From positions 1 through 18,509 of the IMG/VR virus record IMGVR_UViG_3300039321_000032: a DNA stretch of 18,509 nucleotides; one strand, 5' to 3'. The position numbers were made by a program, and so were the translations under genes. Positions 1-18,509 of the stretch are shown in pieces. The first letter of the stretch is position 1. Every line of letters begins with the position of its first letter. The DNA comes from a virus. Under the pieces are notes generated by a model. That model did not search any database, had not been told where the DNA came from, and worked only from the letters and a program-made list of their open reading frames with translations.

Positions 1-5
1 GTGAT

Positions 6-167
6 ATGGAAAGTGATATTAAAGAAACAATAAAACAAACAGAAGAGTATATTAAAGAATTGGATAAATGAATGCTCGAATGTAAAGAGGCTACTAAAAG
101 ATTTGGTGATATTATAGACAAAGTATTAAAAAATAAAGATTATATGTTTATTTCTAAATTTGATTAA
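6..167 (+). CDS. hypothetical small protein (53 aa from the ATG at 6; the frame stays open to the left window edge, so it may be 5'-truncated)
   Basis: Absent from the ORF track because an in-frame TGA (69-71) splits it. Reading TGA as Trp gives MESDIKETIKQTEEYIKELDKWMLECKEATKRFGDIIDKVLKNKDYMFISKFD. TAA at 165-167 lies 2 nt before the next ATG. Confidence 0.4.
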
Positions 168-169
168 TT

Positions 170-310
170 ATGGATGATCATTTATTTAAAAAGCTTGAAG
201 AACTAGAATACAGAATAGTTCAACTAGAAAACCAGAATAGAGGTTTAGTTTGGGAAGAAGTAGAAGAAATGCCAAAACCAGAAATTACTAATGCAACATA
301 TACTGATTAA
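170..310 (+). CDS. hypothetical small protein (46 aa, coiled-coil-like)
   Basis: ATG 170 to TAA 308-310 gives MDDHLFKKLEELEYRIVQLENQNRGLVWEEVEEMPKPEITNATYTD. Tightly packed between its neighbours (2 nt and 1 nt gaps). Below the ORF-track size cutoff. Confidence 0.4.
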   Translation: MDDHLFKKLEELEYRIVQLENQNRGLVWEEVEEMPKPEITNATYTD

Positions 311-311
311 T

Positions 312-455
312 ATGAAATACCAAACCTATAAAGTATGTATAAATGGAGTGTATTATGTATATGTAATACCAGAAAATAGTAAGTTTTTAGTAGACTTACA
401 AACAGGAGATTTAATACCTAAAGAAGATGATAAATTATTTGAAATGATGGAATAA
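312..455 (+). CDS. hypothetical small protein (47 aa)
   Basis: ATG 312 to TAA 453-455 gives MKYQTYKVCINGVYYVYVIPENSKFLVDLQTGDLIPKEDDKLFEMME. Followed 5 nt later by a strong hairpin. Confidence 0.4.
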   Translation: MKYQTYKVCINGVYYVYVIPENSKFLVDLQTGDLIPKEDDKLFEMME

Positions 456-459
456 ATGA

Positions 460-487
460 AAATAGGAGGGCATAAACCCTCCTATTT
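460..487. terminator. hairpin between convergent genes (putative bidirectional intrinsic terminator)
   Basis: Perfect 11-bp inverted repeat AAATAGGAGGG (460-470) / CCCTCCTATTT (477-487) with a 6-nt loop. It sits between the plus-strand stop at 455 and the minus-strand HNH stop (TAG 482-484), which lies inside the right arm. Confidence 0.6.
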
Positions 488-805
488 CTGTTTAAATCTT
501 TGATAATTACTAACCGATGAATGAATAGCTTTATGACAAACTGAACATAATGTTATTAAATCTTCCAAATGTTCCTGCTCATTATATAAATTCTCATACG
601 TCTTATGATGTACCGATAAAGACCTATTTCCGCCTTCCTGAACACATCAGTTACAAGTTTGGCAGTGGTAGTTATCCCGCAATAATATTTGCTCTCTAAT
701 GGCCTTAAAATCCTTTGATCTTATATATCTTTGGTACTTTAAATATTCTTCACTTCTTACTTTCTTCTTTGTCTTATGAAGCAGTTTACTTGATTTGGAG
801 TCCAT
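482..805 (-). CDS. HNH endonuclease (107 aa)
   Basis: ATG at 805-803, one in-frame TGA at 647-649, TAG stop at 482-484. Translation: MDSKSSKLLHKTKKKVRSEEYLKYQRYIRSKDFKAIREQILLRDNYHCQTCNWCVQEGGNRSLSVHHKTYENLYNEQEHLEDLITLCSVCHKAIHSSVSNYQRFKQK. It shows the CxxC...VHH...N...LCxxCHxxIH pattern of HNH nucleases. Missed by the ORF track because of the TGA. Confidence 0.8.
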
Positions 806-807
806 AA

Positions 808-1260
808 TTATATAATTGTAAATTTCTGTCTTCTCTGCAAACCCTCTTTATTCTTCAGTCCTAAATGAATTCAACTAGCTATTCCATTTCTAGGTTTCTC
901 ATAAATAAGTTGATCAAAATCATACTTTTCAATAGCTTCAGTAATCCAAACCTGAAATTCTTTCATTTGGCCGTTACTTGGAATTATATCTGCTGCATAT
1001 CCTGTTAGATGGGCAGATGTCAAAGATCCTCCTACAGCTTTATTAAGCTCATTACATCTATAACCTGAATTCACACTTATTGCTGGATTCCCCAACCGAT
1101 TAACATCACAATACTCTGCCCAATCACTTCTTAATGGGTCTAAAAGTTTCTCGACTAACTCTATAAGGTGTTCAGTAATCTCTTTATTTGGAGTATTATC
1201 TATCTTCTTAATAGAAGCTGTATCAGATCTTGTTAATTCACTAATAGTAAAATATTTCAT
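808..1260 (-). CDS. endolysin, LAS/M15-family zinc peptidase (Peptidase_M15_3/VanY-like), 150 aa
   Basis: Track ORF 871..1260 stops at TGA 871-873. Reading it as Trp adds 20 residues up to TAA 808-810 (...PRNGIAS-W-IHLGLKNKEGLQRRQKFTII). SAHLTGYAAD matches the SxHxxGxAxD zinc motif, and the extension restores the C-terminal W-x-H third ligand. Confidence 0.85.
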
Positions 1261-1421
1261 TATTTAATAATATCTTTAAGCATAGTATAACGGTAAAATA
1301 AATGACATCCTGCACCAAGTGCTATGAGTACTAATGTAATCCAAAATGGAATTACTTTTACCATTAAAAATACTAAGATTATAATTACTATTGCTATTAA
1401 ATATTTCATCCAATATTTCAT
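1260..1421 (-). CDS. putative holin (53 aa, two predicted transmembrane helices)
   Basis: MKYWMKYLIAIVIIILVFLMVKVIPFWITLVLIALGAGCHLFYRYTMLKDIIK has two hydrophobic helices and a charged C-terminus. Its TAA (1260-1262) overlaps the endolysin ATG (TAATG). Below the track cutoff. Confidence 0.55.
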   Translation of the reverse strand: MKYWMKYLIAIVIIILVFLMVKVIPFWITLVLIALGAGCHLFYRYTMLKDIIK

Positions 1422-1424
1422 AAC

Positions 1425-2078
1425 TTATTTATTTAAAATTATACTTACTTTAATTCCTGTATCTCTTAGTTTTACTCAAGTATCAACTGGCATCTCATTA
1501 TCACAATAAGATAAGCCTAAAATTCCAATATCTCTATCTTCTGATTTTAAATAGAATATTGCAATCTTATTAACATCATTAGATTTAAATGTATAATACA
1601 TTCTTCTATCTAATTCCTTTATATCTTCAACATCTCCAAATCATCCTCCTTTTTTAGATGTTTCCAATATAAATAAATAATCAGATAATAGGAAGTCTTT
1701 ATAGTGACTTGAAACTGGAGCAACTCCAGGTTCTGTTTCTTCACTATTCATAATTCCATAAGTGAATGGTAATCCTCCTAATCCTGAAGTGCCATTATGA
1801 TACTCAATAACTCAAGCTCTATCTGCATTCGTATCATTTAAAAGGTCTTTAAGGATATATCTAACCTTAAGATCCGCTTCTTGTCGTATTACTTGATTAG
1901 TATTATGAACTGTTTCTATATAACTTACAACTTTATCATATATTATTCCTGGATTAGTACTTATAATTATTACATAAGAAATAAATATAAATCCAAATCC
2001 ACCTTTAATTATTTTCCACAGTCCATATTTATCTACTCATTCTAATACCTTTCCAAACCAGTTTAATTTATTTTCCAT
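1425..2078 (-). CDS. N-terminally membrane-anchored protein of unknown function (217 aa), directly upstream of the holin
   Basis: ATG 2078-2076 to TAA 1425-1427, open only if four TGAs (2037-2039, 1812-1814, 1641-1643, 1476-1478) are sense. MENKLNWFGKVLEWVDKYGLWKIIKGGFGFIFISYVIIISTNPG... contains a transmembrane helix. No standard-code ORF of 60 aa or more appears on this strand. The only track ORF here (1324..1509, +) is antisense low-complexity. Confidence 0.7.
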
Positions 2079-2503
2079 TACATATTATCAGAACAAGTAC
2101 CCAGAGTGTTGTCTACAGCTAAATCAACTCTAACAAATACTCCAGTGCAAATATCTTTGAACTTCTGATAAAATGGAGTAAAAATTAAAGGATAAGAAAT
2201 ATCAACTTCTGGATATTGGTTATTAAATCGGTTAATTATATTAGTTAATGCTAATATTCCAGCTGATTGCTCTTCAAGCTGATTATTATCAGTCTCATCC
2301 CATCTTGCTATAAAATAGAGATTTAAAGAGTAAGTAATAGTATCCTCATCCATATTAAATGTATTTGGAGTTATATAAAATACATTATATTCAATAGTTG
2401 GGATACTATTAAGTTCATATATATCCTTACTTCCTACAAAATTAATATTGGGTTCTTCAAGAGCACAAGCTTTTAAATTGTTTATTAATTCAAAATACGT
2501 CAT
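2078..2503 (-). CDS. hypothetical virion protein (141 aa; possibly head-tail joining, by position)
   Basis: Track ORF 2078..2605 trimmed to the ATG at 2503 (MTYFELINNLKACALEEP...), 1 nt after the upstream TAA at 2505-2507. Its TAA 2078-2080 overlaps the next ATG. Confidence 0.6.
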   Translation of the reverse strand: MTYFELINNLKACALEEPNINFVGSKDIYELNSIPTIEYNVFYITPNTFNMDEDTITYSLNLYFIARWDETDNNQLEEQSAGILALTNIINRFNNQYPEVDISYPLIFTPFYQKFKDICTGVFVRVDLAVDNTLGTCSDNM

Positions 2504-2504
2504 T

Positions 2505-3188
2505 TTACTTACTCTTTTTATTGTTATCACTTGAAGGGAAATCATAAGCTCTTTGCAGAGGACCTTCACAAGAATTATATCTCCAACCTTTACCTCTAGC
2601 TCCACCTAACCAAATAGTGCAAGATGAACTTGAATACATATTTGGATACATATCTTTAAGAGGTTTATAAGAATACAATTCAGGAAAATCATTATAATAT
2701 GTAATTACCCAATTTTGCAATCTAGTTTTAAAGAAATCTGCTTTATCTCTATAATACTTCTTAATAAGATTAACTTGATTAATATCAGAAGTTAAATCTT
2801 TCTCATCATCAGTCCTCATAACCCCAAAATTACTCAGCTTAAATGAGATGGGTATAGTAATCTCACTTAATACTTGATAAAGTAAATAAGGCTGAATATA
2901 GTAATCTAGCAATTCTTTATATCTATGATTTTCTGGGTCATCTATTGAAGTAGGATCATAAATAGGAGGTTCTATTGGATGAACTGGTTTATTTGGATCT
3001 TTTCAATCAATTACTAATTTCTGAATCTTTTCTAAGAGCTTAGTTCCAATTAATGACTGAAGCTCAATATCTTGTGCAAGTTTAATTGCTGACTGAAGAT
3101 ATTTACCAGAAACATTATTGTCTAAATTGGATTCTGATTTTATATAATCTTCAGATATTAATAGTACATTTCTATAATTATTTTCCAT
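2505..3188 (-). CDS. hypothetical virion protein (227 aa; possibly a head-tail adaptor, by position after the portal)
   Basis: Track ORFs 3003..3188 and 2505..2912 share a frame and are joined by TGA 3003-3005 plus 30 open codons (...KLVID-W-KDPNKPVHPIEPPIYDPTSIDDPENHRYKELLDYYIQ...). The ATG overlaps the portal stop (TAATG). Confidence 0.7.
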
Positions 3189-4270
3189 TATTCAACTTGT
3201 TTAGTATCAGCTTCATTAAGGCTAAATGGTGAAATTGTGATTGAATTCTGCATTCCAAAGATCTTATCAAATGAATCACAAATCTCTTTCTGAATAGGTC
3301 TAATCATAGTTCTATTATAAAGCTTGAATGAAGATTCAAATTCTTGCTCATTAAAACCAGTTGAATCTGAGTTAATTCCAAATAAGTTAGGATTAGCTCT
3401 GAAGGCACAGAATATTTGATCTCTGGTTCTCTCAGATAATGATTGATATTTCTCATCAAAATCATCAGAATCTAATCTTTCAATAGTAGTCTTATTTGCC
3501 TCATCTGCATTATATGAAATCAATATTCTGCCAGCATTCTGATAACCAGAGAACTTCTCATTAATATTCCTCTCAATCTCCTCTCTAATTTCATCTGTAG
3601 GTTCCCCATTATTAAAGTTAATAATAAGATTACCCATAAATCCATTATTGATGTTATTTAAATGGAATTCATTAATATTTTTCTCAGTTTCACAAGATAA
3701 AATAGCAGCTCCATAAACAGGAATAGGATATACTCCTCTTGTTATATAACCTTTATTATAAAATATACTAGCTGGATTTTCATCCCCATCTCCAAATTTT
3801 GGATATTTTATAGCTTTTACAGACCAAGCTGTCCAATCAGTTGCATAATATAATATATCATTCTTTTCGCTTGACCTTACATTCATAAAATCAATATGAT
3901 ATATCTCTGCAACTCTTCCGAGCATATCTCTAATTACTTGGATAGCATAACCTCCAAATATCATCTTATCAATAGTGATTTTTCTCATTATATCAACTAT
4001 TGTTTCACCTTTCTTGTTTACAACTACTTCAAATCCTGGAGCATTACATTTAACATCGTTACCAACAATAAAGTCAGCAGAACCATTAATAATGGATTGG
4101 AGAGTGGCAACATTTAAATATAAATCCCATAGATATAATGGATATTTGTTATCTTCTCCCCACATTACATAATCTTTTCCCCTCACTTTAGTTTCTGTAG
4201 GTAATACGATATTACTTGCAATAAATGGATCAATAGCACTTAACTGAACTTTTGTTTTATTTTCGCTCAT
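3188..4270 (-). CDS. portal protein (360 aa)
   Basis: Size and portal-like sequence blocks (...YGAAILSCETEKNINEFHLNNINNGFMGNLIINFNNGEPTDEIREEIERNINEKFSGYQNAGRILISY... and ...RANPNLFGI...). No TGA; all 4 Trp are TGG. TAA stop. Confidence 0.75.
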   Translation of the reverse strand: MSENKTKVQLSAIDPFIASNIVLPTETKVRGKDYVMWGEDNKYPLYLWDLYLNVATLQSIINGSADFIVGNDVKCNAPGFEVVVNKKGETIVDIMRKITIDKMIFGGYAIQVIRDMLGRVAEIYHIDFMNVRSSEKNDILYYATDWTAWSVKAIKYPKFGDGDENPASIFYNKGYITRGVYPIPVYGAAILSCETEKNINEFHLNNINNGFMGNLIINFNNGEPTDEIREEIERNINEKFSGYQNAGRILISYNADEANKTTIERLDSDDFDEKYQSLSERTRDQIFCAFRANPNLFGINSDSTGFNEQEFESSFKLYNRTMIRPIQKEICDSFDKIFGMQNSITISPFSLNEADTKQVE

Positions 4271-4649: not shown

Positions 4650-4724
4650 ATTTTACAGCAATTTACATTAGTTTTACATATCTTTTTCTTAAAATATAAA
4701 CCAATTTACTAATGTATTAAAATA

Positions 4725-4752
4725 ATTAAAGGAGACCTAAGCCTCCTTTAAT
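4725..4752 (-). terminator. stem-loop downstream of the fibre/LRR block (putative intrinsic terminator)
   Basis: 10-bp stem ATTAAAGGAG (4725-4734) / CTCCTTTAAT (4743-4752) with an 8-nt loop. On the minus strand it is followed by TTATTTTAAT. It lies 51 nt after the LRR-C stop at 4803. Confidence 0.5.
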
Positions 4753-4769
4753 GTCAAGTTTTTTACTCA
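4750..4769 (-). promoter_or_regulatory. conserved 20-nt intergenic motif, copy 1 (minus strand TGAGTAAAAAACTTGACATT)
   Basis: Identical 20-mer at 14239-14258. Contains a TTGACA hexamer. Weaker similarity continues on the minus-strand 5' side (TTTATTT..CTTAG.TAC). Confidence 0.4.
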
Positions 4770-4802
4770 CTCAAAGTACTAAGAAAAAATAAAAATAGAC
4801 AA

Positions 4803-5774
4803 TTAGTTTGAACTTGCTAAAGTTCAGTTTTTAGATGTAGCTAATGATTTCTGTTCTTCAGTAAGTGCATTATAAATGTTAGTATAAAAAGTTAAAGTTT
4901 TGGTATCCTTTCCAGTTAAATCACTAACATTTGTAATAATATCAGTTACTGATTGACTATTTAGTGCTCTAAAATTTGCTAAATTCATACTTTTATCAGC
5001 TCCTTCAACACCCCCAAAATAAGTAACAATAGTATTAGTAGATGCACATATTGAAGTTTTATTTAGATCTCCTGTTAATGTGCAATTATTTAATTTAATT
5101 TTTCCTACTGTTGTAACACCCTCATTATATGAACTAAAGTAATTATATAAAGATAGTTGTCCATTAATAACTTCAATTTCAGGAACATTACTGCTAACAG
5201 AATAAAAGAAAAATTGTAAAGATGATACACCAGTATCAACTTCATTTATCACTTTTAAAGTAGTTGGTAAATTAGAAGCATTAAAGAATGTTCTTGCTGC
5301 ATAATTTCAACTAGAGGATAAGGTATTAATTAATTCTAAATTATTTAGTGTGCCTTGAAATCCAGAAAATGCATACGAATCCCCAACACTAGTTCTTATA
5401 TTATCAATATATATATTATATGTGTTTTGGAAGGCATATGATGCGTTATATACTTTAGACAGATCAATATGACTTGATATATCTATTGTAGATATGAAAT
5501 TAGTCCCATCAAATCAATAATTTATATTATCTGGAAGAGAATATTCTATATTATTATATTGCTCTTGTGTCATACTAGAATGTGCAAATGTTAATCCATA
5601 ATCATTTAAATTAATCTTTCCTCCACCACCTCCAGAAATCTGTCCTATCTTATCAGCATAGCTTCTAAAGGTATCGGAATCTGATACAGCAACACCTTTA
5701 GCTACAATAGCATCTTTAATGGCACTCTTAGTACCTTCAAGATACGTTAATTTATCAGAAATTGTATTTGCCAT
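4803..5774 (-). CDS. BspA/DUF285-like leucine-rich-repeat tail protein, paralogue C (323 aa)
   Basis: Track ORFs 5514..5774 and 4824..5252 are in one frame, joined through TGAs at 5514-5516, 5307-5309 and 4824-4826, ending at TAA 4803-4805. Repeats of the YAF/MF...L type are present. The C-terminal block ...DLTGKDTKTLTF...LTEEQKSLATSKN-W-TLASSN is paralogous to 6671..7792 and 10419..11372. Confidence 0.8.
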
Positions 5775-5775
5775 A

Positions 5776-6429: not shown

Positions 6430-6431
6430 AA

Positions 6432-6668: not shown

Positions 6669-6670
6669 AA

Positions 6671-7792
6671 TTATGCAACTCGATTTATACTTCAATTCTT
6701 TGAAGCTATTAATGATTTCTGTTCATTTGTAAGTTTATCATATGCAGTAGATTTTAATGATATACTTGTATAAGAAGCTACTGCTGTGCCAATAGATTCT
6801 GCTATAGTTTGTAATGAATCCGTAGATAGATTTGGAGATTGTGCAAAATAAAGAATTCCTCCTTTAGTTAAACTCTCTCCTAATCCATTTAAAGCTCCTA
6901 CAGTAACTAATTCTGGACAATTTGCAGCAAAACTAGTACAATCTGTAACAAGATGACAATCTATTTCTGGTGTAGCTGTTAATCTACTACAAGTACTAAA
7001 CATATAGCTTATATCTGTAATTCCAGTAAAGGTAAAATTACTTGGAATAGTTGTTAGATATAATGCTCTACGAAACATATGATTACAATCTCCTTTAAAG
7101 GGAATATTAATCGTTATATTATCTATATTAGTAGCTCCATCAGCTGTATCTGCAAATGCCCATTTTGGATCTACTAATACAAGATTTTGAAAATTATTCA
7201 TTACAGAGAAATCATTATTATCTATTTTTACTCCAATAAATAAATAATTTGCACTTACTTCTTTAGTAGTTGTAGGTATTTTAACATTAGATAAAGTAGC
7301 ACTATGTATTGTTTGACCCCAAAATTGAGATTCACTAGACCATTTTCCATATGCTTCATTAAGATTAGTAATCTCCTGGTTATTTAGATCAAAATGAGAT
7401 GTGTCAAAAAACCCTCCTTTTCTACTTAAATCTCCACTATTTAACTTTACATCTGCATATGTTTGAGCAGAACCTATAATACTACAAAGAGGTACACCAT
7501 CTATATTAAGGGCTAATTCACTTAAATCAGCAGTGAAGCTAATTACTGTAGAATTAGAACCAGATCCTCTACCCATTCAATCCCTTTGTATATCATTTAT
7601 AGTTCCATCATAACTGCTAAATACATAACTGCAAGGATCAACTATTGTAGTACCTTGAGGAACTGGATTAGCAACTGTAACCATCTGTGGATTACAAGGA
7701 TTGATAGGCCAGACTTTGGTACTGCCGACATAAATAGCAGTACCTTGTCTGTCACCTACATAAAATGTTTTTAAATCATCTCTAATATTCAT
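6671..7792 (-). CDS. BspA/DUF285-like leucine-rich-repeat tail protein, paralogue B (373 aa)
   Basis: Track ORFs 7577..7792 and 6692..7576 are in frame, joined by TGA 7577-7579. A second TGA at 6692-6694 extends the end to ...EQKSLIASKN-W-SINRVA, with TAA at 6671-6673. Confidence 0.75.
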
Positions 7793-10197: not shown

Positions 10198-10419
10198 TTA
10201 TTTATTTTTATAAGATTCCTCTTGTTCTTTTAAATATCTTTCATTTGTTTCTGCATCAATAACCCTATAAATAGATATATCAAAGGTTAAAGGGCAATAT
10301 AAAATAGTTGATGCACTATACTCTTTAATATCATCACCTTCTTTATATGAGGTAATAAAATATCCTTCATCAGAGTATAACTTTATAAATATGCTAGTTT
10401 CAATATGTAAATGTTCCAT
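10198..10419 (-). CDS. small conserved protein, paralogue A (73 aa)
   Basis: Intact track ORF. Its ATG overlaps the LRR-A stop (TAATG at 10417-10421), and its TAA lies 1 nt before the fibre A ATG. Paralogous to 6432..6668. Confidence 0.6.
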   Translation of the reverse strand: MEHLHIETSIFIKLYSDEGYFITSYKEGDDIKEYSASTILYCPLTFDISIYRVIDAETNERYLKEQEESYKNK

Positions 10420-11372
10420 TATGCTAATATCCAGTTTTTATTAGTAGCTATTGCTTTCTGTTCATCTGATAATTTTGCCAGATTGGTAGCTCCTAATGTT
10501 AAAGTTTTGCTATTCTCCCCTGTTAAATCAACTAATGCATTAATAACAGACATTAAAGAATCAGTAGTAAGATTGGTACTTGCTGATAGATATAATCCTG
10601 CTCTAAGCTCACCGTTTACTGTAAGATTAGTAATTCCACCACATTTTGAAAATATAGGATTTATTGAACCTTCTTGATTTGTGTATGATGGAATGTTTAA
10701 TGTTACGTCTGTTAATCTAATGCAATCTCCAAACATATTAGTAGTAGTTACTAATTTAGGAGCATCTAAATTAAGTGTTTTCAGGCTATTATATCCAGGT
10801 AAGGCACCTCTGCTAAACATATTAGACCCATCTGTTAATTCAGGCATTGGAATAGTGAATGATGTTAAATCAGCACATTCTGTAAACATATATCTGCCAT
10901 CTTCTAATTTAGGCAATTGCATAGTGAACTCCTTAATGTTTGATCTTTGACATTTATATCTTCCATCAACTAAATTTTCTCAACCTACAACATTTGCAGG
11001 AACAGATGTTCCCGTAAACCTATATAAATTAACTACAGCTTGCGTAATATCATAAGTTGAAGAAGTTGGCACATTAATAGTAGCTTCAACTTTCTCCATA
11101 ACATCATAATCAGAGTCAGGAAGAATCTCTATTGGTCCATTCTGAGTAATTGTAATTGCTTTGGAAGCTTGAACTGTAGGAACTACTACATCAACAGATA
11201 CATTTACCTTAGACATTCCATCATATCCCTCATCTGGCAGTACTTCAAACTCTGCATTTTGAGTATATTCTACTGATTTTTCTTGTAACTTACATTCAGC
11301 AGCTTTAATTAAATCTAAATTTTTAGTTGTAGTATTTTTAGCTACTGGTTCTGATGTGAATACTATTGCCAT
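10419..11372 (-). CDS. BspA/DUF285-like leucine-rich-repeat tail protein, paralogue A (317 aa)
   Basis: Track ORFs 10980..11372 and 10419..10922 are in frame, joined by TGA 10980-10982 plus 19 open codons. N-terminal tandem units (...EFEVLPDEGYDGMSKVNVSVDV / ...PIEILPDSDYDVMEKVEATINV) precede the LRR repeats (MFTECADLTSF, NMFGDCIRLTDV). The C-terminus ...SDEQKAIATNKNWILA uses TGG for its Trp. Confidence 0.8.
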
Positions 11373-11453: not shown

Positions 11454-11463
11454 CTTTCTGTTA

Positions 11464-11988
11464 TTAAGCACCTACAACGCTTTGGATAGCTTCTGCAGAT
11501 AACTCATAAGGATAAGAATCTGAATCTGTTGAAAGTGTCAGAGTATAAGCATTCTGATCACCTTTAGCAGTACCAGTAACACCCGTACCAGCGGAAGCGC
11601 TTACATAATCATCTTTACCTAAGAACCAATACTTACCATTGCTATCTTCAACAACAACTGCAAGCTGACCAATTGATAAAGCTGCAATCTCTACTCGTTT
11701 TGCTGTTTCCATCTTTGTAAATACAAGAGCAAGCTCATTACTTACATAATTAACACCAGCACTTTCATCTACATTTAAAGTTGAGGTTAGAGAACCAGTA
11801 GCCTTTCTAAATTGGTAGTTATACCATTTAGCTGAAGACTCAAGAGTAATAGCTGAAATCATATTGCTCTCAGGATCAACCGTTACACTTTTAACATCTG
11901 CATACTGGGTAATCCATACCTGTTTGATTCCACCCAATGAAGGTTGGCAATCAAGTGTGATTCCTGCGATAGTTATTAAACAAGCCAT
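11464..11988 (-). CDS. abundant structural protein (174 aa; major tail or head-associated protein, function uncertain)
   Basis: Intact track ORF directly after the capsid gene and before a terminator. Higher GC than its surroundings, no TGA, TAA stop. Confidence 0.7.
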   Translation of the reverse strand: MACLITIAGITLDCQPSLGGIKQVWITQYADVKSVTVDPESNMISAITLESSAKWYNYQFRKATGSLTSTLNVDESAGVNYVSNELALVFTKMETAKRVEIAALSIGQLAVVVEDSNGKYWFLGKDDYVSASAGTGVTGTAKGDQNAYTLTLSTDSDSYPYELSAEAIQSVVGA

Positions 11989-12028
11989 AATTTCAATATC
12001 ATTTAGAAGTTAATAAAATCTATTGAAA

Positions 12029-12934
12029 TTAAGCCTTGGCGCCTAATACTACTTCGTCAGGGAAAGCAACTTGTACACCAGCGTTAAATTCAATAGCTAA
12101 TCTGAACTCGCGGAAATCCTGTGAATACCACAATTCGAATTTCTCTTCATCGTTCATCATATCTACACCATAGAAGAAGTTCTTGTCTAACTGACCAGCA
12201 ACAATCTTATCAGTTCCATTAAGACCATTAACAGCAATAACCTTAACCTGTGAACCAGGAAGATAAATCTCACCATTAAGGCTCTCTCCGCTATAGTGGA
12301 AATAGTTCTTCTCAACAAGTTCATTTACGAACTTACGGAACATATCGGCACCAACAAGAATCGAAGCACCATCAAGAACCTTCTCAGGAATTGCATTATA
12401 AACTGCCATAATATCAGTATAGGCAGATTCTCCAGCAATTTCTACATCTACAGTACCATTATCAGCAGCAAGAATCTTAAGCAGACCATCAAAATACTTC
12501 AAGTTATTAGTTTCTGAAGCCGTATCACCCTGCCAGATAGCTACCTCAATAGCCTCTTTTACGTTCTCTACAACAGCATTTACGAAATCCTCTTCAAAAG
12601 GAAGAGTCTTCTGACCAGCGGCTACCTTAACTGCATACTGAGTCCAGTATTTCAGCATAGCCTTATCGCAATATGCCATATTAATCTTAATATTACCAGT
12701 CTTAAGAATTCTCTGAGAAAGAGTCTGAGTTCCAGCCTCATCCCAACCACAAGTAAGACCATCACCGAACTGAACATCGGTAGATAACAGGTTAAGAGCA
12801 GCATCAGTTTTAATATCTGTCTGAAGATTAAACAAACTTGCACTCTTAGCTTTTAAAACCGCTTCCTTAATAAGAGGGAGACGTCTTTGCTCCACATAAG
12901 CAGGAAGAGTTGTCATTACAGGACTATTTGCCAT
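12029..12934 (-). CDS. major capsid protein (301 aa, HK97-fold type by size, position and sequence character)
   Basis: Intact track ORF following protease and scaffold. All 4 Trp are TGG, no TGA, TAA stop. Confidence 0.8.
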   Translation of the reverse strand: MANSPVMTTLPAYVEQRRLPLIKEAVLKAKSASLFNLQTDIKTDAALNLLSTDVQFGDGLTCGWDEAGTQTLSQRILKTGNIKINMAYCDKAMLKYWTQYAVKVAAGQKTLPFEEDFVNAVVENVKEAIEVAIWQGDTASETNNLKYFDGLLKILAADNGTVDVEIAGESAYTDIMAVYNAIPEKVLDGASILVGADMFRKFVNELVEKNYFHYSGESLNGEIYLPGSQVKVIAVNGLNGTDKIVAGQLDKNFFYGVDMMNDEEKFELWYSQDFREFRLAIEFNAGVQVAFPDEVVLGAKA

Positions 12935-12955
12935 AATTATTTAAAATTTTATAAA

Positions 12956-13561
12956 TTAACCAATAAAGTTTTTAAGCTTTCTATCTATTTCTGCTATTCC
13001 ACTTATAGGAGCAGTTGTTTTATTTTCGAGTGTTTCCTCTGCTGAAAAAGCAGCACTCATCTTACTCATTTTTTCTACAGTCTTTTCAGTAGCTTCTGAC
13101 TTTCCTTCAAGTTCTGCTACTTTCTTAACAAGCTTATCTACAATATCATAGAGCTCATTAATTTCGCGATGAATAGCGTCGATTGCATCAGTCTCAGTTT
13201 CTTTAACACCGTCTGTTTCAACAGCAGGATCAGCAACTTCCTCAGCTTTTACTCTCTTAGTTCCACAAGCAGCATCAACCTCAACAGTTCTCATACCCTC
13301 ATCTGGATCAACTTCAGCTTTAGGATCAGTAATGGACTCTACTTTACCGTCTTTAACAACAATAGTTTTGCCATCTTCGGTAACATACTCACCATCAGCA
13401 GCAGGTGCATATTCGCCATTTTCATCAGCTACATAAACATCCATACCTTCTTTCAGATCCTCATCCGAATCCCAAGTAAGCACAGCCTTGTCAGTTTTAA
13501 CATCACTGAACTTTGCAAGCATCTTAGCTAACTCAAGTTTAATTTTTGTGAATTTACTCAT
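12956..13561 (-). CDS. scaffolding protein (201 aa, acidic, coiled-coil C-terminus)
   Basis: Located between the protease and capsid genes. Asp/Glu/Lys-rich low-complexity sequence (...DPKAEVDPDEGMRTVEVD... / ...REINELYDIVDKLVKKVAELEGKSEATEKTVEKM...). Confidence 0.65.
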   Translation of the reverse strand: MSKFTKIKLELAKMLAKFSDVKTDKAVLTWDSDEDLKEGMDVYVADENGEYAPAADGEYVTEDGKTIVVKDGKVESITDPKAEVDPDEGMRTVEVDAACGTKRVKAEEVADPAVETDGVKETETDAIDAIHREINELYDIVDKLVKKVAELEGKSEATEKTVEKMSKMSAAFSAEETLENKTTAPISGIAEIDRKLKNFIG

Positions 13562-13567
13562 AATTAA

Positions 13568-14161
13568 TTAATGTTTAACTCTTTTTATTTTTCTCAACAT
13601 TTTTTGAATCTCTTTAAGTTCCTCATATTCATCAGATTGTCTTTCTAAAGTAAACAATCCCTCAATAGATAACCCTTTAAACTTTCCAGCTTTAATTGCA
13701 TCCCATATAACAGGATTATTTACTTTATAAGTAGCAAATAATGAACCATCTGGACAATCAGCAAATTCAACTGGATTAATTCCTCTATCTATATCTTTAA
13801 CATATAGTTCTTGAAGAATTATTCCAGGAATTACTGAATCTTCCAAATGTTCAATATTTACATCAGTAGTTCTCTTATCATACATCATTTTTTCAGCCAT
13901 TAAACGGAGAGTTTCTTTATCATATTGAATATAATATTCTCCGTTTTTACTATCCCGTCTAAATATAGGTATATCACATACCATTAAACAAGAAGTAACT
14001 ATATGTTTTTCTTCATCCATCGAGAACTTCTGAGATTCCCCAAAAGCAAGCCAATTAACTTGGGTTGCAGGTTTACTGGTCAATGCTACGAACTCTATTC
14101 CATCACAATCATCAGCAATAATTGCTTGATATAATGGAAGATCATTATACATTTTTTCCAT
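13568..14161 (-). CDS. prohead protease, XkdF-like (197 aa)
   Basis: First gene of the head module. The layout ...DVNIEHLEDSVIPGIILQELYV...GSLFATYKVNNPVIWDAIKAGKFKGLSIEGLF resembles XkdF-type phage serine proteases, recognised by eye only. Confidence 0.65.
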   Translation of the reverse strand: MEKMYNDLPLYQAIIADDCDGIEFVALTSKPATQVNWLAFGESQKFSMDEEKHIVTSCLMVCDIPIFRRDSKNGEYYIQYDKETLRLMAEKMMYDKRTTDVNIEHLEDSVIPGIILQELYVKDIDRGINPVEFADCPDGSLFATYKVNNPVIWDAIKAGKFKGLSIEGLFTLERQSDEYEELKEIQKMLRKIKRVKH

Positions 14162-14238
14162 TTTTTATTAATATATAAGCTATTTTAAAAATGTAATATT
14201 GTTACAATCTTTTATTTTTATATATTTATATACTATCA

Positions 14239-14258
14239 AATGTCAAGTTTTTTACTCA
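14239..14258 (-). promoter_or_regulatory. conserved 20-nt intergenic motif, copy 2 (candidate promoter of the head module)
   Basis: Identical to 4750-4769. On the minus strand, TTGACA is followed by 16-18 nt and then TATATA/TATAAA, about 55-60 nt upstream of the protease ATG at 14161. A degenerate third copy (TGAGTAAAA-N4-TGACA) lies at 14337-14354. Confidence 0.45.
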
Positions 14259-14292
14259 AATTTGTATCTAAGATAAATAAATTTTGACATAG

Positions 14293-14336
14293 CACTACTA
14301 TATAAGCACTGATAATCAGCAACTTACATAGTAGTG
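14293..14336 (-). terminator. long stem-loop after the tape-measure gene (putative terminator or RNA structure)
   Basis: 14-bp arms CACTACTATATAAG (14293-14306) / CTTACATAGTAGTG (14323-14336). The single non-Watson-Crick position is a G-U wobble on the minus-strand transcript but an A-C mismatch on the plus strand. The loop carries an inner CTGA/TCAG palindrome. It starts 21 nt after the TAA at 14357. Confidence 0.45.
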
Positions 14337-14356
14337 TGTCAGAAATTTTACTCACT

Positions 14357-17116
14357 TTAGAAACTTGCATTTGATTCTGTAACTGCAACTTTAGTTTGAG
14401 CATTAGTAATATCACTCTCAACTACATAGCATTTAACAGGTTCATTTAATAAATCAGTCTCTTTATCACCAAGTAAGTTTCGAGTGTATTCTACAGGAGT
14501 AGTGTTTAAAGCAGCAGGTGCTGCAACAGATGCAGAAGCAGAAGATGCAGATGCTCCACTAGTTTCATCTACTTCTCAAATCTTTTTAACATTAGCTATA
14601 CCAGCTGCAATTGCTGCAGCAGCGGCGGCAGCACCTAAAGCTGGACCTACAACTGGAATACCAGCCATTGCAGAATAAGCACTGTTAGCTGCACTATATG
14701 TATCAATTAAAGCTTGAGCTGTTGCGAATCCTTTACCTACTTTACTTTCCTCTCCTCATATAGTTGCCATACTTCCTGCAACCTTTGATGCTAGATCAAG
14801 GCGAGCTTTTATAGATTCTTGATATTGCTTATTAACATTTTCTCTAACTTTGTTTTTCTTATTTTCTCTGTCTATTTCATTTTCAGTTAATTGCTCATCA
14901 ATAGAATCTAATTCTAGTTTAATAAGTTTTCTCTGATCAGCTGTTAAAGTCTCATTTTCTAATTGTTTTAATAGAAAAGACTTCTGCTCCTCCAATCTTG
15001 TTTTTATTTGATTATTATATTTATCTATAGAACCTTCTTCAGTATCTGTTCCTAATAAACGATCTTTATATCCCTCTATGTCTTTTTTGCTTGAATAAGA
15101 GAACTCACCACTTAATCCAAATATTTTGGCAAATCCTTGTGTATATTGAGTTTTAGGAATTTCTAAAGATGGATCTTTTATATCATACCTTGCCTCGCGC
15201 ATTCTTTTTAACTCAGTCTGCAGATCATCTCAAGCTTTATCCGCAGCACTTTTTCTTGCATTTTCTTCATCTTCTCTAGCTTTATCTCTAATTTTCTTCA
15301 GCTCTTCTTGATGCCAAGCCTCAACTTCTTCAATACTTCTATTATTTTTAATAGCTAGTGCTAATAGTCTAATATATTCATCTTCAAGTTCATCTACTGG
15401 GTCTTTATCCTCTAATCTCTTTTGAAGCCATTCATCAAATTCATTTATTACCTTCTTAGCTTCAGTAGTGTTCTTTGTAATAGTTGGAATATTAAAGAAC
15501 CCACCATACTTTTTATTAGTATCTGCTACATCCTCAAATAGCTTTTTAATCCTTTTCTCAATGTCTTTATTTAAATCATCCAACTGTTTATAAGTATTCT
15601 CTTTATTTTGCTTTGTATACTCATAAATTGTATTTGAATAATCTTTTCAGAACATTGCTGTAGCTTTAAAAGCCTGCCAAGCAGATGCCTCTCCAAAGCT
15701 TGTATCAGAAATTTGATTCTCCAGTTCAGTACGTTTATTTAAATACTCCTCATAAAGCTTAATTGCAGCCTGTTCAATAGCCTGAGCTTTTGCTCTTGCA
15801 GTTAATGCTTCTACATAATTACCAGTATTATTTACAAACGCATCTTCTGCAGTCTTTACATTAGTAATATTTAAACCAGTCTCTTTAATCTTATCGGAAT
15901 ATTGCTCTATAAACTTACGCTTAGCATCTGCAGAATCTCCAACCCTTTCGTAAGCTATTTGTAACTCTCTAAAGATAGCTATAGATTTAGAAGCAATCTG
16001 ATTAGTAGTATCTGTAATAGACTTTCTAAATTCAGCAGCCTCCTTTTCAGCTGATTTTATTGAGGATATATACTCTATTATCTTATTAATAGCTACTCCA
16101 ATAGCTGTAGCTAATGCAATTCATACAGTTACATTACCAATAGTTTTAAGTGCAGTTTTAACTTTACCTACTCCAGAAGCAGCTTGTTCTGAAGCTTCAG
16201 CCATTGCTTTCTGAGCCTCTGCCCCTTTTCGCAAAGTTGGAATGCCTTTTTCTACATTTTCCTTTAATTCAGCAAGATCTACACCTAAACGTTTAGCAGC
16301 TTTCTGCATTCTCTCTGCTGGAGTTCCAGTCTCTTTTGCTGCTTCCTTTAAAAATTCAGCAACTGTAGTAACTGTAGGTTTTACTTCTTCAAAGGACTTT
16401 TTTGCAGTTTCTCCTAATTTACCTATAATCGGAATCGTATTAGATACACTCTTATTAGTAGCAGATATTTCAGCAGGAGTGCCCATTACTCCTTGAATCA
16501 TACCTCCTTTAAAATTAATATTGGTGCCTTCTAAATCCTTGACTACTTTAGAGATATTACCTAATTCAGTTCCAACATTACCAACAGATGTGCCAATGCC
16601 ATTAAGCTTAGATGCATCAATCTGATTAAGATTTTTGGCAGCATTATTCAACCCTGTATTAAATGGAGAGATAAAATCAGTTAATTTCTTAAACCAATTA
16701 CCTAAAGTAGGCAATTCTTCTAATAAATCTTTTATACCTCCAATACCTTGTACTAATGCAATAGATGACTGTAACTTAACCATTACTTTATTTAAATCTT
16801 CTGATTCTTTCCCAAATAAAGTAATAGCAGCAGTTGCAGCTCCATATCCACTGGCCAAACCAGTGGATATTTTAGCTACACTTTCAAACCTTTGAGCAGT
16901 AGTTCTTGAAGATCTTGCTATCTGCTCATTAATTTTATTGAACTCTGATTGTCTTTTACCTAGTAATGCAAGAGTTTCATTATATTCCTTAGTACCAATC
17001 TCTAAATCATTCAGAGAACTAGATAATGCGTCAATATCTTTCTTTAAAGAGTTTATTGATTTATTACTTGATTTAGTATCAATACTAATAACCTTTTTAA
17101 TTTCTGTTTGTGCCAT
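14357..17116 (-). CDS. tape-measure-like protein (919 aa)
   Basis: Track ORFs 16121..17116, 15230..15583 and 14756..15202, plus an unlisted C-terminal part, are one frame through five TGAs (16121-16123, 15647-15649, 15230-15232, 14756-14758, 14576-14578), ending at TAA 14357-14359 (checked line by line). Long coiled-coil stretches and Gly/Ala-rich hydrophobic segments (GLASGYGAATAAITLFG; GIPVVGPALGAAAAAAAIAAGIA) are typical of tape-measure proteins. Confidence 0.75.
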
Positions 17117-18509
17117 TAGATTGTAATATTTTTAACAGTATCTTCTGTTAGTGTTAAATTCTCTGTATATTTAACTGTTCCTGTAGGTCCATCAGTCACT
17201 TCAAATTTAAACTGAACACCTTTTTGAGCATATATTCTATAATTTCCATTATCCTGCATATAAGCCACATTCAAGAAGTTATCGTTTTCTGTAAGTATCT
17301 GATTTACCCCAGTTGGTATAGTGCCACTTGGAGTTTCTAATTTGCCTGTAATAAGAACAGCTTTATTTGGGTCTGGAGTTTGAGTAAACATACATTTAGG
17401 ACCATCTACGCCTCCTTGTTTATAAAGACTAAAGTAGAAACTCCTTTGATTATATGTAGTATTCTCATTATAAGTAACTGTTAATTCTGTTTCTCCAGGT
17501 TGCCCAGATTCAGGTGTAATGCTTACAATTTCATTTGGACTATATCATCCTAATTCTCAAGGAATATTAGAAGTAACTGTAATCTTTTTAGTCCCAGCTT
17601 TATAATCTACAACTGGATCTGAATCATCAAATGATATATATTCACCTAGATTTTGAACTCCAGCTAAATAACTATTAATATCTTGAACTTTAATAAATTC
17701 ACATCTAACTGTAGAATCTGAATTAATATCATAAGCATCAATCTTATTAAGTATCCAGTAAGAATCTTCAAAATAATAGAACTGTCTAAGTAAATCATAC
17801 TTAACATCTAAATCATCCAATCTTACAAAACAAGTAACTTTCTTAGTATTAACATCAAATTGATCATTATAAAATTCACTTCAGAATCTACTATAAATAG
17901 TACTTCCGATATTATAAGTTATATCATCAATATAAATCTCTTGTGGTAATCCAAAATCTCAAGAAGCAGTAACATTAGAGGACGAAACGGTATACCTTGT
18001 AAATTGAGGTAATACAGTTCTCTTTATAGCAATTTTATTCCCACTAATATCTTTCTCACTTTTAGTAGATATATAACACATTTCCTGATCATTTAATATG
18101 TTCATTTCTGTAAGATCATCTGTAATTCAATATGTTACTTCATTTCCTTTTACATCAGTTAAAGGAACATTACCGTTAAAGAATACTAGGGATTGAGAGA
18201 TATCCTCTAAAGATTCCTCATTACCATCAATTGAGAAAAATACATTTTTGGCAAATATATCATTACCTGCGATTTTATATCATTCTGTGGTTTTAGAGGG
18301 ATCTATAAAATTAGCTCCGTATAACTCTTGATCTATAGTCTTAAGTTCAGTAGTGCTATTATTAAATAATGTATAGGTAATATTATCATTCATAAATGCA
18401 GGAACTACAAGGGAAGAAGAATTGTAAAAATTTCTAAAATATTTATTTCTCCATCTTGCAGAAACTATATTTTCATATATATTATCACTATACAGTTCAG
18501 TTGTTTCAG
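17116..18509 (-). CDS. tail-associated structural protein with C-terminal BACON/Ig-like domain (over 464 aa, 5' end outside the window)
   Basis: One frame is open from the right window edge to TAA 17116-17118 if six TGAs are sense (18280-18282, 18127-18129, 17959-17961, 17881-17883, 17557-17559, 17545-17547). It absorbs track ORFs 17557..17820 and 17116..17391. ITVTSNIPWELGWYSPNEIVSITPESGQPGETELTVTYNENTTYNQRSFYF matches the BACON-type pattern. The stop overlaps the tape-measure ATG (TAATG). Confidence 0.75.

What the first reader, a model, noticed from the sequence alone, without database searches (positions are those of the whole stretch)
1..18509. TGA is decoded as tryptophan across this phage late region (stop-codon recoding, table-4-like)
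Seen directly: 26 in-frame TGAs sit inside 11 otherwise continuous reading frames. All 24 genes terminate with TAA (23) or TAG (1), never TGA. No in-frame TAA or TAG interrupts any joined frame, which argues against decay or assembly error. Evidence for Trp identity: (a) The three paralogous LRR proteins end ...NKN-W-ILA, ...SKN-W-SINRVA and ...SKN-W-TLASSN; the first uses TGG and the other two use TGA at the same column. (b) The M15 endolysin regains its W-x-H motif (IAS-W-IHLG) only across TGA 871-873. (c) Both Trp of the BACON-like signature NIP-W-ELG-W-YSP are TGA. (d) Fibre A reads YATEK-W-VEDNYL, a common fibre motif. Standard-code gene calling breaks the tape-measure gene into 4 pieces. 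It also misses the 217-aa membrane protein and the HNH gene entirely.
Basis: partly seen in the sequence, partly recalled or inferred. Interest (0 to 1): 0.9.

Follow-up and report, generated by a model that had tools for sequence, protein, structure and literature searches.

The report
Gut phage reads TGA as tryptophan
This 18.5 kb piece of a roughly 30 kb human-gut phage really does use the stop codon TGA as a tryptophan codon, but this kind of recoding is already well documented in gut phages, so it is a solid new example, not a new phenomenon.

Summary
ORF coverage rises from 0.58 under table 11 to 0.91 when TGA is sense.

TGA means Trp. Across 56 related contigs the window's TGA codons align to TGG 179 times, and to Gly codons only about 12 times. 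In standard-code relatives searched with X-masked queries, Trp is the commonest partner (21 of 85) and Gly is rare (2 of 85). The M15 endolysin keeps its conserved W-x-H only if TGA130 is read through.

Recoding is genome-wide, not confined to the late region. No tRNA, release factor or tRNA synthetase was found in near-complete ~30 kb relatives.

The host is most likely a standard-code Bacteroidota. The supporting clues are portal similarity, prophage relatives in Bacteroidota contigs, no Shine-Dalgarno motifs and a peptidoglycan endolysin. This remains an inference.

The family also contains a standard-code lineage without TGA stops and a TAG-recoded lineage. All of this matches the alternatively coded gut phages of Borges et al. 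Verdict: a new member of a known kind. The only open point is what decodes TGA.

The parts
17116..18507 (-). g01: C-terminal 463 aa of a ~1,120-1,150 aa tail protein, cut by the window end. Six in-frame TGAs: 18282-18280, 18129-18127, 17961-17959, 17883-17881, 17559-17557, 17547-17545. It has a weak BACON_2-like domain.
   Evidence: The site at 17883-17881 is TGG in 15 of 15 standard-code relatives.
14357..17116 (-). g02: tape-measure protein, 919 aa. Five in-frame TGAs: 16123-16121, 15649-15647, 15232-15230, 14758-14756, 14578-14576.
   Evidence: JGI standard-code calls split the orthologue into 331-, 117- and 148-aa pieces.
11464..14161 (-). Head module g03-g06: XkdF-type protease (14161..13568), scaffold-like protein (13561..12956), major capsid protein (12934..12029) and g06 (11988..11464). 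It holds 0 TGA and 10 TGG.
   Evidence: In seven near-complete relatives the capsid gene is 0 TGA to 28 TGG and g06 is 0 to 21.
10419..11372 (-). g07: BspA-type LRR protein, 317 aa. It has a TGA at 10982-10980, and the Trp in its C-terminal KN-W motif is encoded by TGG.
7794..10196 (-). g09: tail fibre, 800 aa, with a Phage_tail_C domain. TGA at 9716-9714.
6671..7792 (-). g10: LRR paralogue, 373 aa. TGAs at 7579-7577 and 6694-6692. The second lies in the KN-W column.
4803..5774 (-). g13: LRR paralogue, 323 aa. TGAs at 5516-5514, 5309-5307 and 4826-4824. The last lies in the KN-W column.
   Evidence: The standard-code relative L036 has TGG at the last site.
3188..4270 (-). g15: portal protein, 360 aa. 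It holds 0 TGA and 4 TGG.
   Evidence: Phage_portal, E = 4e-16. In the phage collection it hits only Bacteroidota phages, apart from one unassigned 4-kb human-faecal record.
2505..3188 (-). g16: DUF6712 protein, 227 aa. TGA at 3005-3003.
1425..2078 (-). g18: 217-aa membrane protein. Four TGAs: 2039-2037, 1814-1812, 1643-1641, 1478-1476.
   Evidence: In the homologue alignment the four columns are W in 16, 18, 18 and 11 of 18 sequences. Relatives alternate TGA and TGG at three of the four sites.
1260..1421 (-). Holin-like ORF of 53 aa with two predicted transmembrane segments, immediately upstream of the endolysin. It holds 0 TGA and 2 TGG.
   Evidence: The holin role is inferred from position and hydrophobicity.
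808..1260 (-). g19: Peptidase_M15_3 endolysin, 150 aa. The TGA at 873-871 is residue 130, two codons before the conserved H132.
482..805 (-). g20: HNH endonuclease, 107 aa. TGA at 649-647. It is the only gene that ends in TAG.
6..167 (+). Small + strand gene p1, 53 aa, with one in-frame TGA at 69-71. It is followed by p2 (170-310) and p3 (312-455). These genes converge on g20.
   Evidence: The orthologue in relatives is 92 aa with 3 TGAs.
459..488 (.). GC-rich hairpin with a T-run between the convergent + and - strand genes. It is likely a bidirectional terminator.
14239..14257 (-). One copy of the 19-nt intergenic motif GAGTAAAAAACTTGACATT, in the tape-measure/protease gap. The second copy is at 4750-4768 (-).
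   Evidence: 2 exact copies against 0.04 expected. A third, near-identical copy sits in an intergenic gap of relatives outside the window.

Best explanation
The window is the structural and lysis region of a ~30 kb, 31% GC, tailed phage of the human gut. The region runs tail, tape measure, head, fibres with LRR proteins, portal, holin, M15 endolysin and HNH. In this phage TGA has been fully reassigned from stop to tryptophan, and TAA (rarely TAG) is the only terminator.

Shown here:
- TGA is a sense codon, it stands for Trp, and it is never a terminator.
- The reassignment holds across the whole genome of close relatives.
- The phage carries no detectable tRNA, release factor or aminoacyl-tRNA synthetase gene.

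Inferred:
- The phage belongs to the known class of 'alternatively coded' low-GC gut phages that infect standard-code hosts, here most likely Bacteroidota.
- In this class low GC content first purges TGA stops. A 66%-identical-capsid relative is in exactly that state.
- TGG-to-TGA changes then accumulate once some TGA-decoding activity is available.
- TGA use is incomplete. It makes up 42% of Trp codons, against a 67% A-ending preference in Lys, Glu and Gln codons. It is avoided in the capsid, scaffold, g06 and helicase-like genes, as expected if decoding is costly or not available from the first minute.

What actually decodes TGA is not encoded in any recognisable way. The candidates are a host tRNA, an undetected non-canonical RNA, or release-factor-2 interference.

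Sub-confidences: TGA = Trp sense codon about 0.97; standard-code (Bacteroidota) host rather than a code-4 host about 0.7.
For: Sense-codon status:
- 26 in-frame TGAs, no TGA terminators, and P of about 1e-110 for the open frames.
- Coding coverage 0.58 under table 11 against 0.91 with TGA as sense.
- Proteins align across the TGAs in dozens of independently assembled contigs.

Trp identity:
- Window TGAs align to TGA 281 times, TGG 179 times, then Phe and Tyr codons; Gly codons about 12 times.
- 20 of the 25 minus-strand sites have TGG in at least one relative.
- X-masked queries against standard-code relatives give W 21 of 85 and G 2 of 85, with one column TGG in 15 of 15.
- The endolysin's W130-x-H132 is conserved in 23 of 23 full-length homologues. 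H132 is nearly invariant, consistent with a catalytic residue, and lies downstream of the TGA.
- The LRR paralogues align TGG, TGA and TGA in one column.

Genome-wide use.

No decoding machinery:
- ARAGORN finds no tRNA in the window or in 105 of 106 related loci. The only hit is a tRNA-Leu beside the prophage integrase in L105.
- Rfam finds no tRNA at the gathering threshold or at E <= 1.
- No UCA anticodon stem-loop occurs in intergenic DNA.
- Pfam and PHROGs find no translation factor.

Host clues:
- The portal hits only Bacteroidota phages, apart from one unassigned human-faecal record.
- Standard-code relatives are integrated in a 114-kb Agriterribacter contig, with a Bacteroidota-type integrase next to tRNA-Leu, and in a 128-kb Alistipes contig.
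- No Shine-Dalgarno motif is visible upstream of the starts.
- A peptidoglycan peptidase plus a holin implies a walled host.
- Only 18 of 4,930 human-microbiome species-level genomes use TGA as sense. All 18 are under 1 Mb and match lineages already known to use code 4 or 25 (PMC8153819).

Family holds three codes: L036 is standard code with no TGA stops, and L096 is TAG-recoded.

The class is described in bioRxiv 10.1101/2021.08.26.457843.
Against: - No suppressor tRNA(UCA) was found, and in-frame TGAs occur in almost every transcription unit: terminase, HTH regulators and the leftward operon's small genes. A simple 'early genes standard, late genes recoded' switch therefore does not fit cleanly.
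- The host is not identified directly. The Bacteroidota links come from relatives with only 31-49% capsid identity and from a 27%-identical portal. MAG bin labels of phage-sized contigs are unreliable; some say Faecalimonas, Coprococcus or Methanosphaera.
- There is no proteomic evidence.
Confidence: 0.75

Rival explanations
1. The phage simply mirrors its host. It infects a gut bacterium that natively uses code 4 (TGA = Trp), so it needs no switching machinery.
For: - No tRNA, release factor or synthetase gene is found in near-complete ~30 kb genomes.
- TGA occurs in most operons, including the terminase and regulators.
- Low GC (31%) and the absence of Shine-Dalgarno motifs are also compatible with Mollicutes-like hosts.
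Against: - Known free-living code-4 bacteria (Mycoplasmatales, Entomoplasmatales) have no peptidoglycan (established knowledge). This phage ends its late operon with a holin-like gene and an intact M15 peptidoglycan peptidase.
- Code 4/25 genomes are only 18 of 4,930 human-microbiome species-level genomes (PMC8153819). Yet this capsid protein is found in 102 blocks of public assemblies, some at more than 300x coverage.
- The TGA share of Trp codons (42%) is well below the A-ending preference (67%, p = 6e-5). TGA is absent from the capsid gene (0 TGA to 28 TGG), g06 (0 to 21) and the helicase-like gene (0 to 33).
- 46% of the window's genes contain an in-frame TGA. Phages of recoded hosts average about 90%.
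- The nearest lineages use the standard code or a TAG recoding, and family links point to Bacteroidota.
Confidence: 0.17
2. TGA is decoded as glycine (table 25), as in Absconditabacteria and Gracilibacteria and their phages.
For: Tables 4 and 25 give the same reading frames. A few relatives have Gly codons at g16 residue 62 (5 of 28) and g02 residue 787 (3 of 39).
Against: - TGA columns pair with TGG 179 times and with Gly codons about 12 times.
- In standard-code relatives the partners are W 21 and G 2.
- The invariant W of the M15 W-x-H motif falls on a TGA.
- BACON_2 scores 4 bits higher with W than with G.
Confidence: 0.01
3. The TGAs are real stops. The genes are decaying pseudogenes or assembly or sequencing errors, or the TGAs are rare programmed read-through or selenocysteine sites.
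For: Under table 11 the frames are broken, and standard-code pipelines (JGI) call fragments.
Against: - No in-frame TAA or TAG in 2,820 downstream codons.
- The same TGAs recur in many independent assemblies from different samples, and the proteins stay conserved downstream.
- TGA is never a terminator in 24 genes.
- Six TGAs in one gene would make leaky read-through unproductive.
- Partners are Trp, not Cys, and no Cys codon appears among the commonest partners.
Confidence: 0.01

Closest known systems
Alternatively coded (stop-codon-recoded) gut phages of Borges et al. (bioRxiv 10.1101/2021.08.26.457843; Nat Microbiol 2022), especially the small Garnet, Amethyst and Topaz clades (22-34 kb) and the TGA-recoded Agate, Jade and Sapphire genomes
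   Same: - Low-GC gut phage with TGA aligning to Trp.
- Recoded codons are abundant in structural and lysis genes.
- Close relatives use the standard code with depleted TGA stops, and other relatives use the TAG recoding.
- Predicted standard-code Bacteroidota host.
- Lack of a detectable suppressor tRNA, which is also true of 65% of their code-4 genomes.
   Different: - Membership of a named clade could not be tested, because no reference sequences were available.
- No integrase was seen, unlike the Garnet and Topaz prophages.
- Their Jade phages carry a tRNA(UCA), TrpRS and RF1 operon, whereas nothing of the kind is present here.
- TGA also sits in the terminase and regulator genes, so the early/late partition is blurred.
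crAss-like phages (Crassvirales) with TAG-to-Gln or TGA-to-Trp blocks (Yutin et al. 2021, from my own knowledge; Peters et al. 2022, PMC9523058; Mgcod, bioRxiv 10.1101/2022.06.29.495998)
   Same: Gut phages of Bacteroidota with low GC, no Shine-Dalgarno motifs and recoded late genes.
   Different: - crAss-like genomes are ~100 kb podovirus-like phages, usually with suppressor tRNAs and block-wise dual coding.
- This one is a ~30 kb phage with a tape-measure protein, it has no capsid match in the 50,697-record phage collection, and it is recoded genome-wide.
Genetic code 4 of Mycoplasmatales and Entomoplasmatales and their phages
   Same: Same codon meaning (TGA = Trp, TAA/TAG stops) and low GC.
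   Different: Those hosts lack peptidoglycan and decode TGA with a chromosomal tRNA-Trp(UCA) (established knowledge). This phage has a peptidoglycan endolysin, uses TGA less than TGG, and has Bacteroidota family ties.
Code 25 phages of Absconditabacteria and Gracilibacteria (TGA = Gly)
   Same: TGA is a sense codon and no phage tRNA is needed, because the host supplies the decoding.
   Different: The amino acid here is Trp, not Gly. The share of genes with an in-frame TGA is 46%, against about 90%.

Membership tests
Genetic code 4 usage (TGA = Trp) | In-frame TGAs inside conserved protein-coding genes, with the frames otherwise intact | tested here: met
   26 TGAs in 11 of 24 genes; no in-frame TAA or TAG; P of about 1e-110; ORF coverage 0.58 rising to 0.91.
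Genetic code 4 usage (TGA = Trp) | TGA is not used as a terminator | tested here: met
   Terminators are 23 TAA and 1 TAG. The same holds in near-complete relatives, where table-4 frames pack tightly with 1-2 nt gaps.
Genetic code 4 usage (TGA = Trp) | TGA columns align to Trp in homologues, not to Gly, Cys or protein ends | tested here: met
   TGG 179 against Gly about 12. Standard-code relatives give W 21 of 85 and G 2 of 85. M15 W130 is present in 23 of 23 full-length homologues.
Genetic code 4 usage (TGA = Trp) | A tRNA with a UCA anticodon available to the translating system | tested here: not met
   No tRNA in the window or in near-complete genomes by ARAGORN or Rfam, and no UCA anticodon loop in intergenic DNA. 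A host-encoded tRNA cannot be examined here.
Genetic code 4 usage (TGA = Trp) | Peptide evidence for Trp at TGA positions | not testable with these tools
   No proteomic data are available. Peters et al. (PMC9523058) validated only TAG-to-Gln in phages.
Alternatively coded phage infecting a standard-code host (Borges-type) | The host uses the standard code | tested here: inconclusive
   Indirect evidence only: portal hits confined to Bacteroidota phages apart from one unassigned record; relatives integrated in Agriterribacter and Alistipes contigs; a peptidoglycan endolysin. There is no direct host link for this clade.
Alternatively coded phage infecting a standard-code host (Borges-type) | Low GC and loss of the recoded stop in close standard-code relatives | tested here: met
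   The window is 31% GC. L036 (capsid 66% identical, 28% GC) uses the standard code with only TAA and TAG terminators.
Alternatively coded phage infecting a standard-code host (Borges-type) | The recoded codon is concentrated in structural and lysis genes and avoided in early or replication genes | tested here: inconclusive
   The helicase-like gene is 0 TGA to 33 TGG. However, the capsid gene is also 0 to 28, and TGA occurs in the terminase, HTH and T5orf172 genes.
Alternatively coded phage infecting a standard-code host (Borges-type) | Phage-encoded code-switch machinery (suppressor tRNA, release factor, aminoacyl-tRNA synthetase) | tested here: not met
   None was found. It is also absent in 65% of published code-4 phage genomes.
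Named clades Garnet, Amethyst and Topaz | Large-terminase phylogenetic placement within the clade | not testable with these tools
Genome size (~30 kb) is compatible with Garnet and Amethyst (34 kb).
Code 25 (TGA = Gly) | TGA columns align to Gly | tested here: not met
   Gly codons are about 2% of partners.
Crassvirales | crAss-type capsid, portal and terminase, and a ~100 kb genome | tested here: not met
   No capsid match in the phage collection. The genome is ~30 kb with a tape-measure protein.

The most novel reading that the evidence does not exclude
A complete ~30 kb phage has reassigned TGA to Trp in almost every operon while encoding no tRNA, release factor or synthetase. If the host is a standard-code Bacteroidota, the code switch must rest on an undescribed mechanism. 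One possibility is a small phage protein that disables release factor 2, so that host tRNA-Trp(CCA) reads UGA. Others are a non-canonical suppressor RNA, or dependence on a suppressor supplied by the host or by another resident element.
Probability: 0.2. Interest if true: 0.8.

Novelty: new member of a known kind. Interest (0 to 1): 0.3.

Why it matters
Practically, standard-code annotation shatters this abundant human-gut phage. The tape measure, tail, lysis and receptor-binding genes are split or lost, as the JGI gene calls show, so it must be annotated with table 4.

Scientifically it adds a compact, widely sampled lineage to the list of TGA-recoded gut phages. The lineage has hundreds of near-identical public contigs.
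- Its relatives include a 'TGA-free' standard-code lineage and a TAG-recoded lineage, which makes it a convenient small system for studying how stop-codon reassignment arises.
- It could also help address the known open question of how recoded phages that lack a suppressor tRNA get their codon decoded.

It does not reveal a new phenomenon.

Tried and rejected
- Cultured or annotated relatives: none found. Megablast of the window and tblastn of the capsid against 50,697 phage records gave no match.
- Host context in the 148-kb IMG/VR contig 175865: rejected. Its last 35.5 kb repeats the phage gene order past one genome length, so it looks like a concatemer.
- Integrated copies: none. The exact capsid protein occurs only on contigs under 50 kb.
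- Suppressor tRNA searches:
  - ARAGORN at default settings found none.
  - ARAGORN with thresholds lowered to 80%, or with intron or mitochondrial modes, gave only scattered hits, most of them inside coding sequence and none consistent across the three genomes. I treat these as noise.
  - Rfam at E <= 1 found no tRNA.
  - A pattern search for a 5-bp stem with a YU-UCA-R loop found none in intergenic DNA.
- Nucleotide context around the in-frame TGAs: no bias. The following base is A 11, G 10, T 5 and C 0, similar to all codons.
- Translation-related genes in the non-window part of the genome: Pfam and PHROGs found none. They found only the large terminase, a helicase-like protein, T5orf172 and an HTH/sigma-region-4 protein.
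- BACON domain as strong evidence: rejected, because it scores below threshold.
- Taxon labels of MAG bins holding phage-sized contigs: disregarded as host evidence.

Full report
**What is in the window**

The window is 31% GC and almost entirely coding on the - strand. With TAA and TAG as the only stops, 21 tightly packed genes appear on the - strand. Typical junctions are TAATG overlaps or gaps of 1-2 nt. Three small genes sit on the + strand at 6-455 and converge on a hairpin terminator at 459-488.

Pfam identifies the following:
- an XkdF-type prohead protease
- a portal (E = 4e-16)
- a BspA-type LRR protein (sub-threshold match, 20.7 bits against a 27.7-bit cut-off)
- a tail-fibre tip domain
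- DUF6712
- a Peptidase_M15_3 endolysin (E = 4e-14)
- an HNH endonuclease

The 919-aa protein is the tape measure, judged by size, position and composition. A 53-aa ORF with two hydrophobic segments just upstream of the endolysin is a likely holin. This is therefore the structural and lysis region of a tailed phage.

**Check of the observation**

- 24 genes with 5,981 sense codons
- 26 in-frame TGAs in 11 genes
- 36 TGG codons
- no in-frame TAA or TAG
- terminators 23 TAA and 1 TAG, never TGA

In the two off-frames of the same genes, TAA and TAG together make up 8.6% of triplets. The 2,820 codons lying downstream of each gene's first TGA would stay open by chance with a probability of about 1e-110. 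ORFs of at least 100 aa cover 0.58 of the window under table 11, 0.91 with TGA as sense and 0.59 with TAG as sense.

**Which amino acid**

I fetched 56 related IMG/VR loci through the TGA-free capsid protein and read the actual codon aligned to each window codon.
- Window TGAs face TGA 281 times and TGG 179 times. Then come TTT (16), TAT (10), and small numbers of others. All Gly codons together appear about 12 times.
- In the other direction, relatives' TGAs face window TGA (281), TGG (31) and TAT (16).
- 20 of the 25 minus-strand TGA sites have TGG in at least one relative.

Because TGG means Trp in every code, this alternation does not depend on how any database translated the relatives.

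As a stricter test I masked the TGAs as X and aligned only to standard-code relatives under table 11.
- Trp is the commonest partner (21 of 85, against a background of about 1%). Gly is 2 of 85.
- g01 residue 209 is TGG in 15 of 15 such genomes.

Further evidence:
- The 217-aa membrane protein g18 has W in 16, 18, 18 and 11 of 18 homologues at its four TGA columns.
- In the M15 endolysin, residue 130 is W in all 23 full-length homologues aligned, including proteins on 145-188 kb contigs, at least one of them bacterial. The nearly invariant H132 lies two residues downstream of the TGA. It is consistent with the third metal ligand of this enzyme class, which is an inference from conservation. 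The enzyme can therefore only be complete if the TGA is read through.
- The three LRR paralogues align at their C-termini with TGG, TGA and TGA in one column.
- The 'BACON-like' argument is weak. BACON_2 scores 19.2 bits with W and 15.2 with G, both below the 25-bit threshold.

Table 25 (Gly), selenocysteine, decay and assembly error are rejected.

**The whole genome**

I merged overlapping loci to rebuild near-complete relatives of 29-31 kb. Their gene order is:
1. a small regulatory block (an HTH/sigma-region-4 protein and small membrane proteins)
2. the large terminase
3. tail genes
4. tape measure
5. head genes
6. fibres
7. portal
8. lysis genes
9. HNH endonuclease
10. a short leftward operon with a 573-aa helicase-like protein and, in some genomes, a T5orf172 protein

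In-frame TGAs occur in most of these genes, including the terminase and the regulators. The recoding is therefore genome-wide, not a late-region property.

TGA use is nevertheless uneven. Across seven genomes the TGA-to-TGG counts are:
- capsid protein: 0 to 28
- g06: 0 to 21
- scaffold: 0 to 6
- helicase-like protein: 0 to 33
- LRR protein g13: 22 to 2
- tape measure: 20 to 14

In the window TGA makes up 42% of Trp codons, although A-ending codons make up 67% of Lys, Glu and Gln codons (p = 6e-5). TGA is thus under-used relative to neutral expectation. That fits a recent or costly reassignment better than a long-standing host-wide code.

**Who decodes TGA**

No recognisable decoding machinery is present.
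- ARAGORN finds no tRNA in the window or in 105 of 106 related loci. The only hit is a tRNA-Leu beside the prophage integrase in the distant relative L105.
- Rfam finds no family at the gathering threshold in three near-complete genomes. At E <= 1 it finds only a spurious snoRNA hit.
- Relaxed ARAGORN modes give only inconsistent noise.
- No UCA anticodon stem-loop exists in intergenic DNA.
- No release factor or synthetase is encoded.

The decoding agent is therefore unknown. This is not unusual for the class. Borges et al. detected TGA suppressor tRNAs in only 35% of code-4 phage genomes.

**Host**

There is no direct link to a host. The indirect evidence favours a walled, standard-code Bacteroidota.
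- The portal hits only Nonlabens and Bacteroides phages in the phage collection, apart from one unassigned 4-kb human-faecal record.
- Standard-code capsid relatives (31-38% identity) are integrated in a 114-kb Agriterribacter contig, next to a Bacteroidota-type integrase and tRNA-Leu, and in a 128-kb Alistipes contig.
- No Shine-Dalgarno motifs precede the genes.
- The holin plus M15 peptidoglycan peptidase cassette argues against wall-less Mollicutes, the only known free-living code-4 bacteria.
- Only 18 of 4,930 human-microbiome species-level genomes read TGA as sense (PMC8153819). This phage, by contrast, is widespread in human gut assemblies. Its exact capsid protein occurs in 102 data blocks, always on contigs under 50 kb.
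- 46% of the window's genes carry an in-frame TGA. That lies within the 26-71% range reported for recoded phages of standard-code hosts, not the ~90% seen for phages of recoded hosts.

**Family context**

The TGA-recoded clade spans capsid identities of 71-100%. The next relative, L036 (66% identity, 28% GC), uses the standard code but has no TGA terminators at all. L096 (48% identity, a contig binned with a Bacteroidaceae MAG) is TAG-recoded: it has up to 8 in-frame TAGs per tail gene, a TAG-free capsid gene, and TGA as a stop. More distant relatives use the standard code.

This is the evolutionary pattern proposed by Borges et al.: low GC depletes a stop codon, which is then captured, repeatedly and over short distances.

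**Comparison and verdict**

ENA and Logan gene calls already give full-length proteins for these contigs, whereas JGI standard-code calls are fragmented.

I file it as a new member of a known kind.
- It works like the described alternatively coded gut phages.
- Membership of a named clade (Garnet or Amethyst by size) could not be tested.
- It is not crAss-like.

The one open aspect is the absence of any encoded decoding machinery in a small genome that is recoded almost throughout.

Interest is 0.3.

Noticed in passing
window 14239-14257 (-) and 4750-4768 (-); third copy in L065 ~19066-19085: An exact 19-nt motif, GAGTAAAAAACTTGACATT, occurs in two of the few long intergenic gaps: before the head module and before the g14-portal module. 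That is 2 copies against 0.04 expected. A near-identical copy lies in the gap before the tail module in relatives. In two of the three cases a GC-rich hairpin with a T-run follows immediately. It may be a phage promoter or regulatory element, or a promoter-terminator unit.
   Followed up: partly
window 14162-14356 (-): The 195-nt gap between the tape-measure and protease genes folds far better than shuffled controls (-45.9 kcal/mol, z = -4.5). It includes a long, near-perfect hairpin. The 265-nt gap in L065 (18890-19154) behaves the same way (z = -4.5). No Rfam family matches either.
   Followed up: partly
L036 (IMGVR_UViG_3300029905_000019), whole locus: This is the closest standard-code relative (capsid 66% identical, 28% GC). 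All of its ORFs of at least 90 aa end in TAA or TAG, and none contains or ends in TGA. TGA is effectively unassigned, a plausible intermediate on the way to reassignment.
   Followed up: partly
L096 (CAVCAD010000156.1, Bacteroidaceae MAG contig), whole locus: This relative, with 48% capsid identity, is TAG-recoded instead. ORF coverage is 0.62 under tables 11 and 4 but 0.85 with TAG as sense. Each of two tail genes holds 8 in-frame TAGs, the capsid gene is TAG-free, and TGA serves as a terminator. No tRNA was found in the 16 kb held.
   Followed up: partly
L109-L114 (relatives): Homing-endonuclease genes (GIY-YIG, HNH_3, NUMOD3/4) are inserted at different places between structural genes in otherwise collinear relatives. 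Examples are between the protease and scaffold genes, after the portal, and before the tail gene.
   Followed up: no
IMGVR_UViG_3300045988_175865 (L073 + L030, last 35.5 kb of a 148.6 kb contig): The gene order runs past one full genome length: from fibre genes through lysis and terminase, then tail, head and fibre genes again. The 148-kb 'viral contig' therefore looks like a concatemer of ~30 kb units, possibly an assembly artefact. It does not look like a prophage in host DNA.
   Followed up: partly
window 11464-14161 and 3188-4270; relatives' 573-aa gene (c140557 20484-22205): The capsid, scaffold, g06 and a helicase-like gene avoid TGA completely across seven genomes (0 TGA to 88 TGG in total). 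Their neighbours use it freely. This suggests selection against TGA in very highly expressed or very early genes.
   Followed up: partly
window 1260-1421 (-): A 53-aa ORF with two hydrophobic segments lies between g18 and the endolysin. It is probably the holin. It is below the size cut-off of many gene callers.
   Followed up: no
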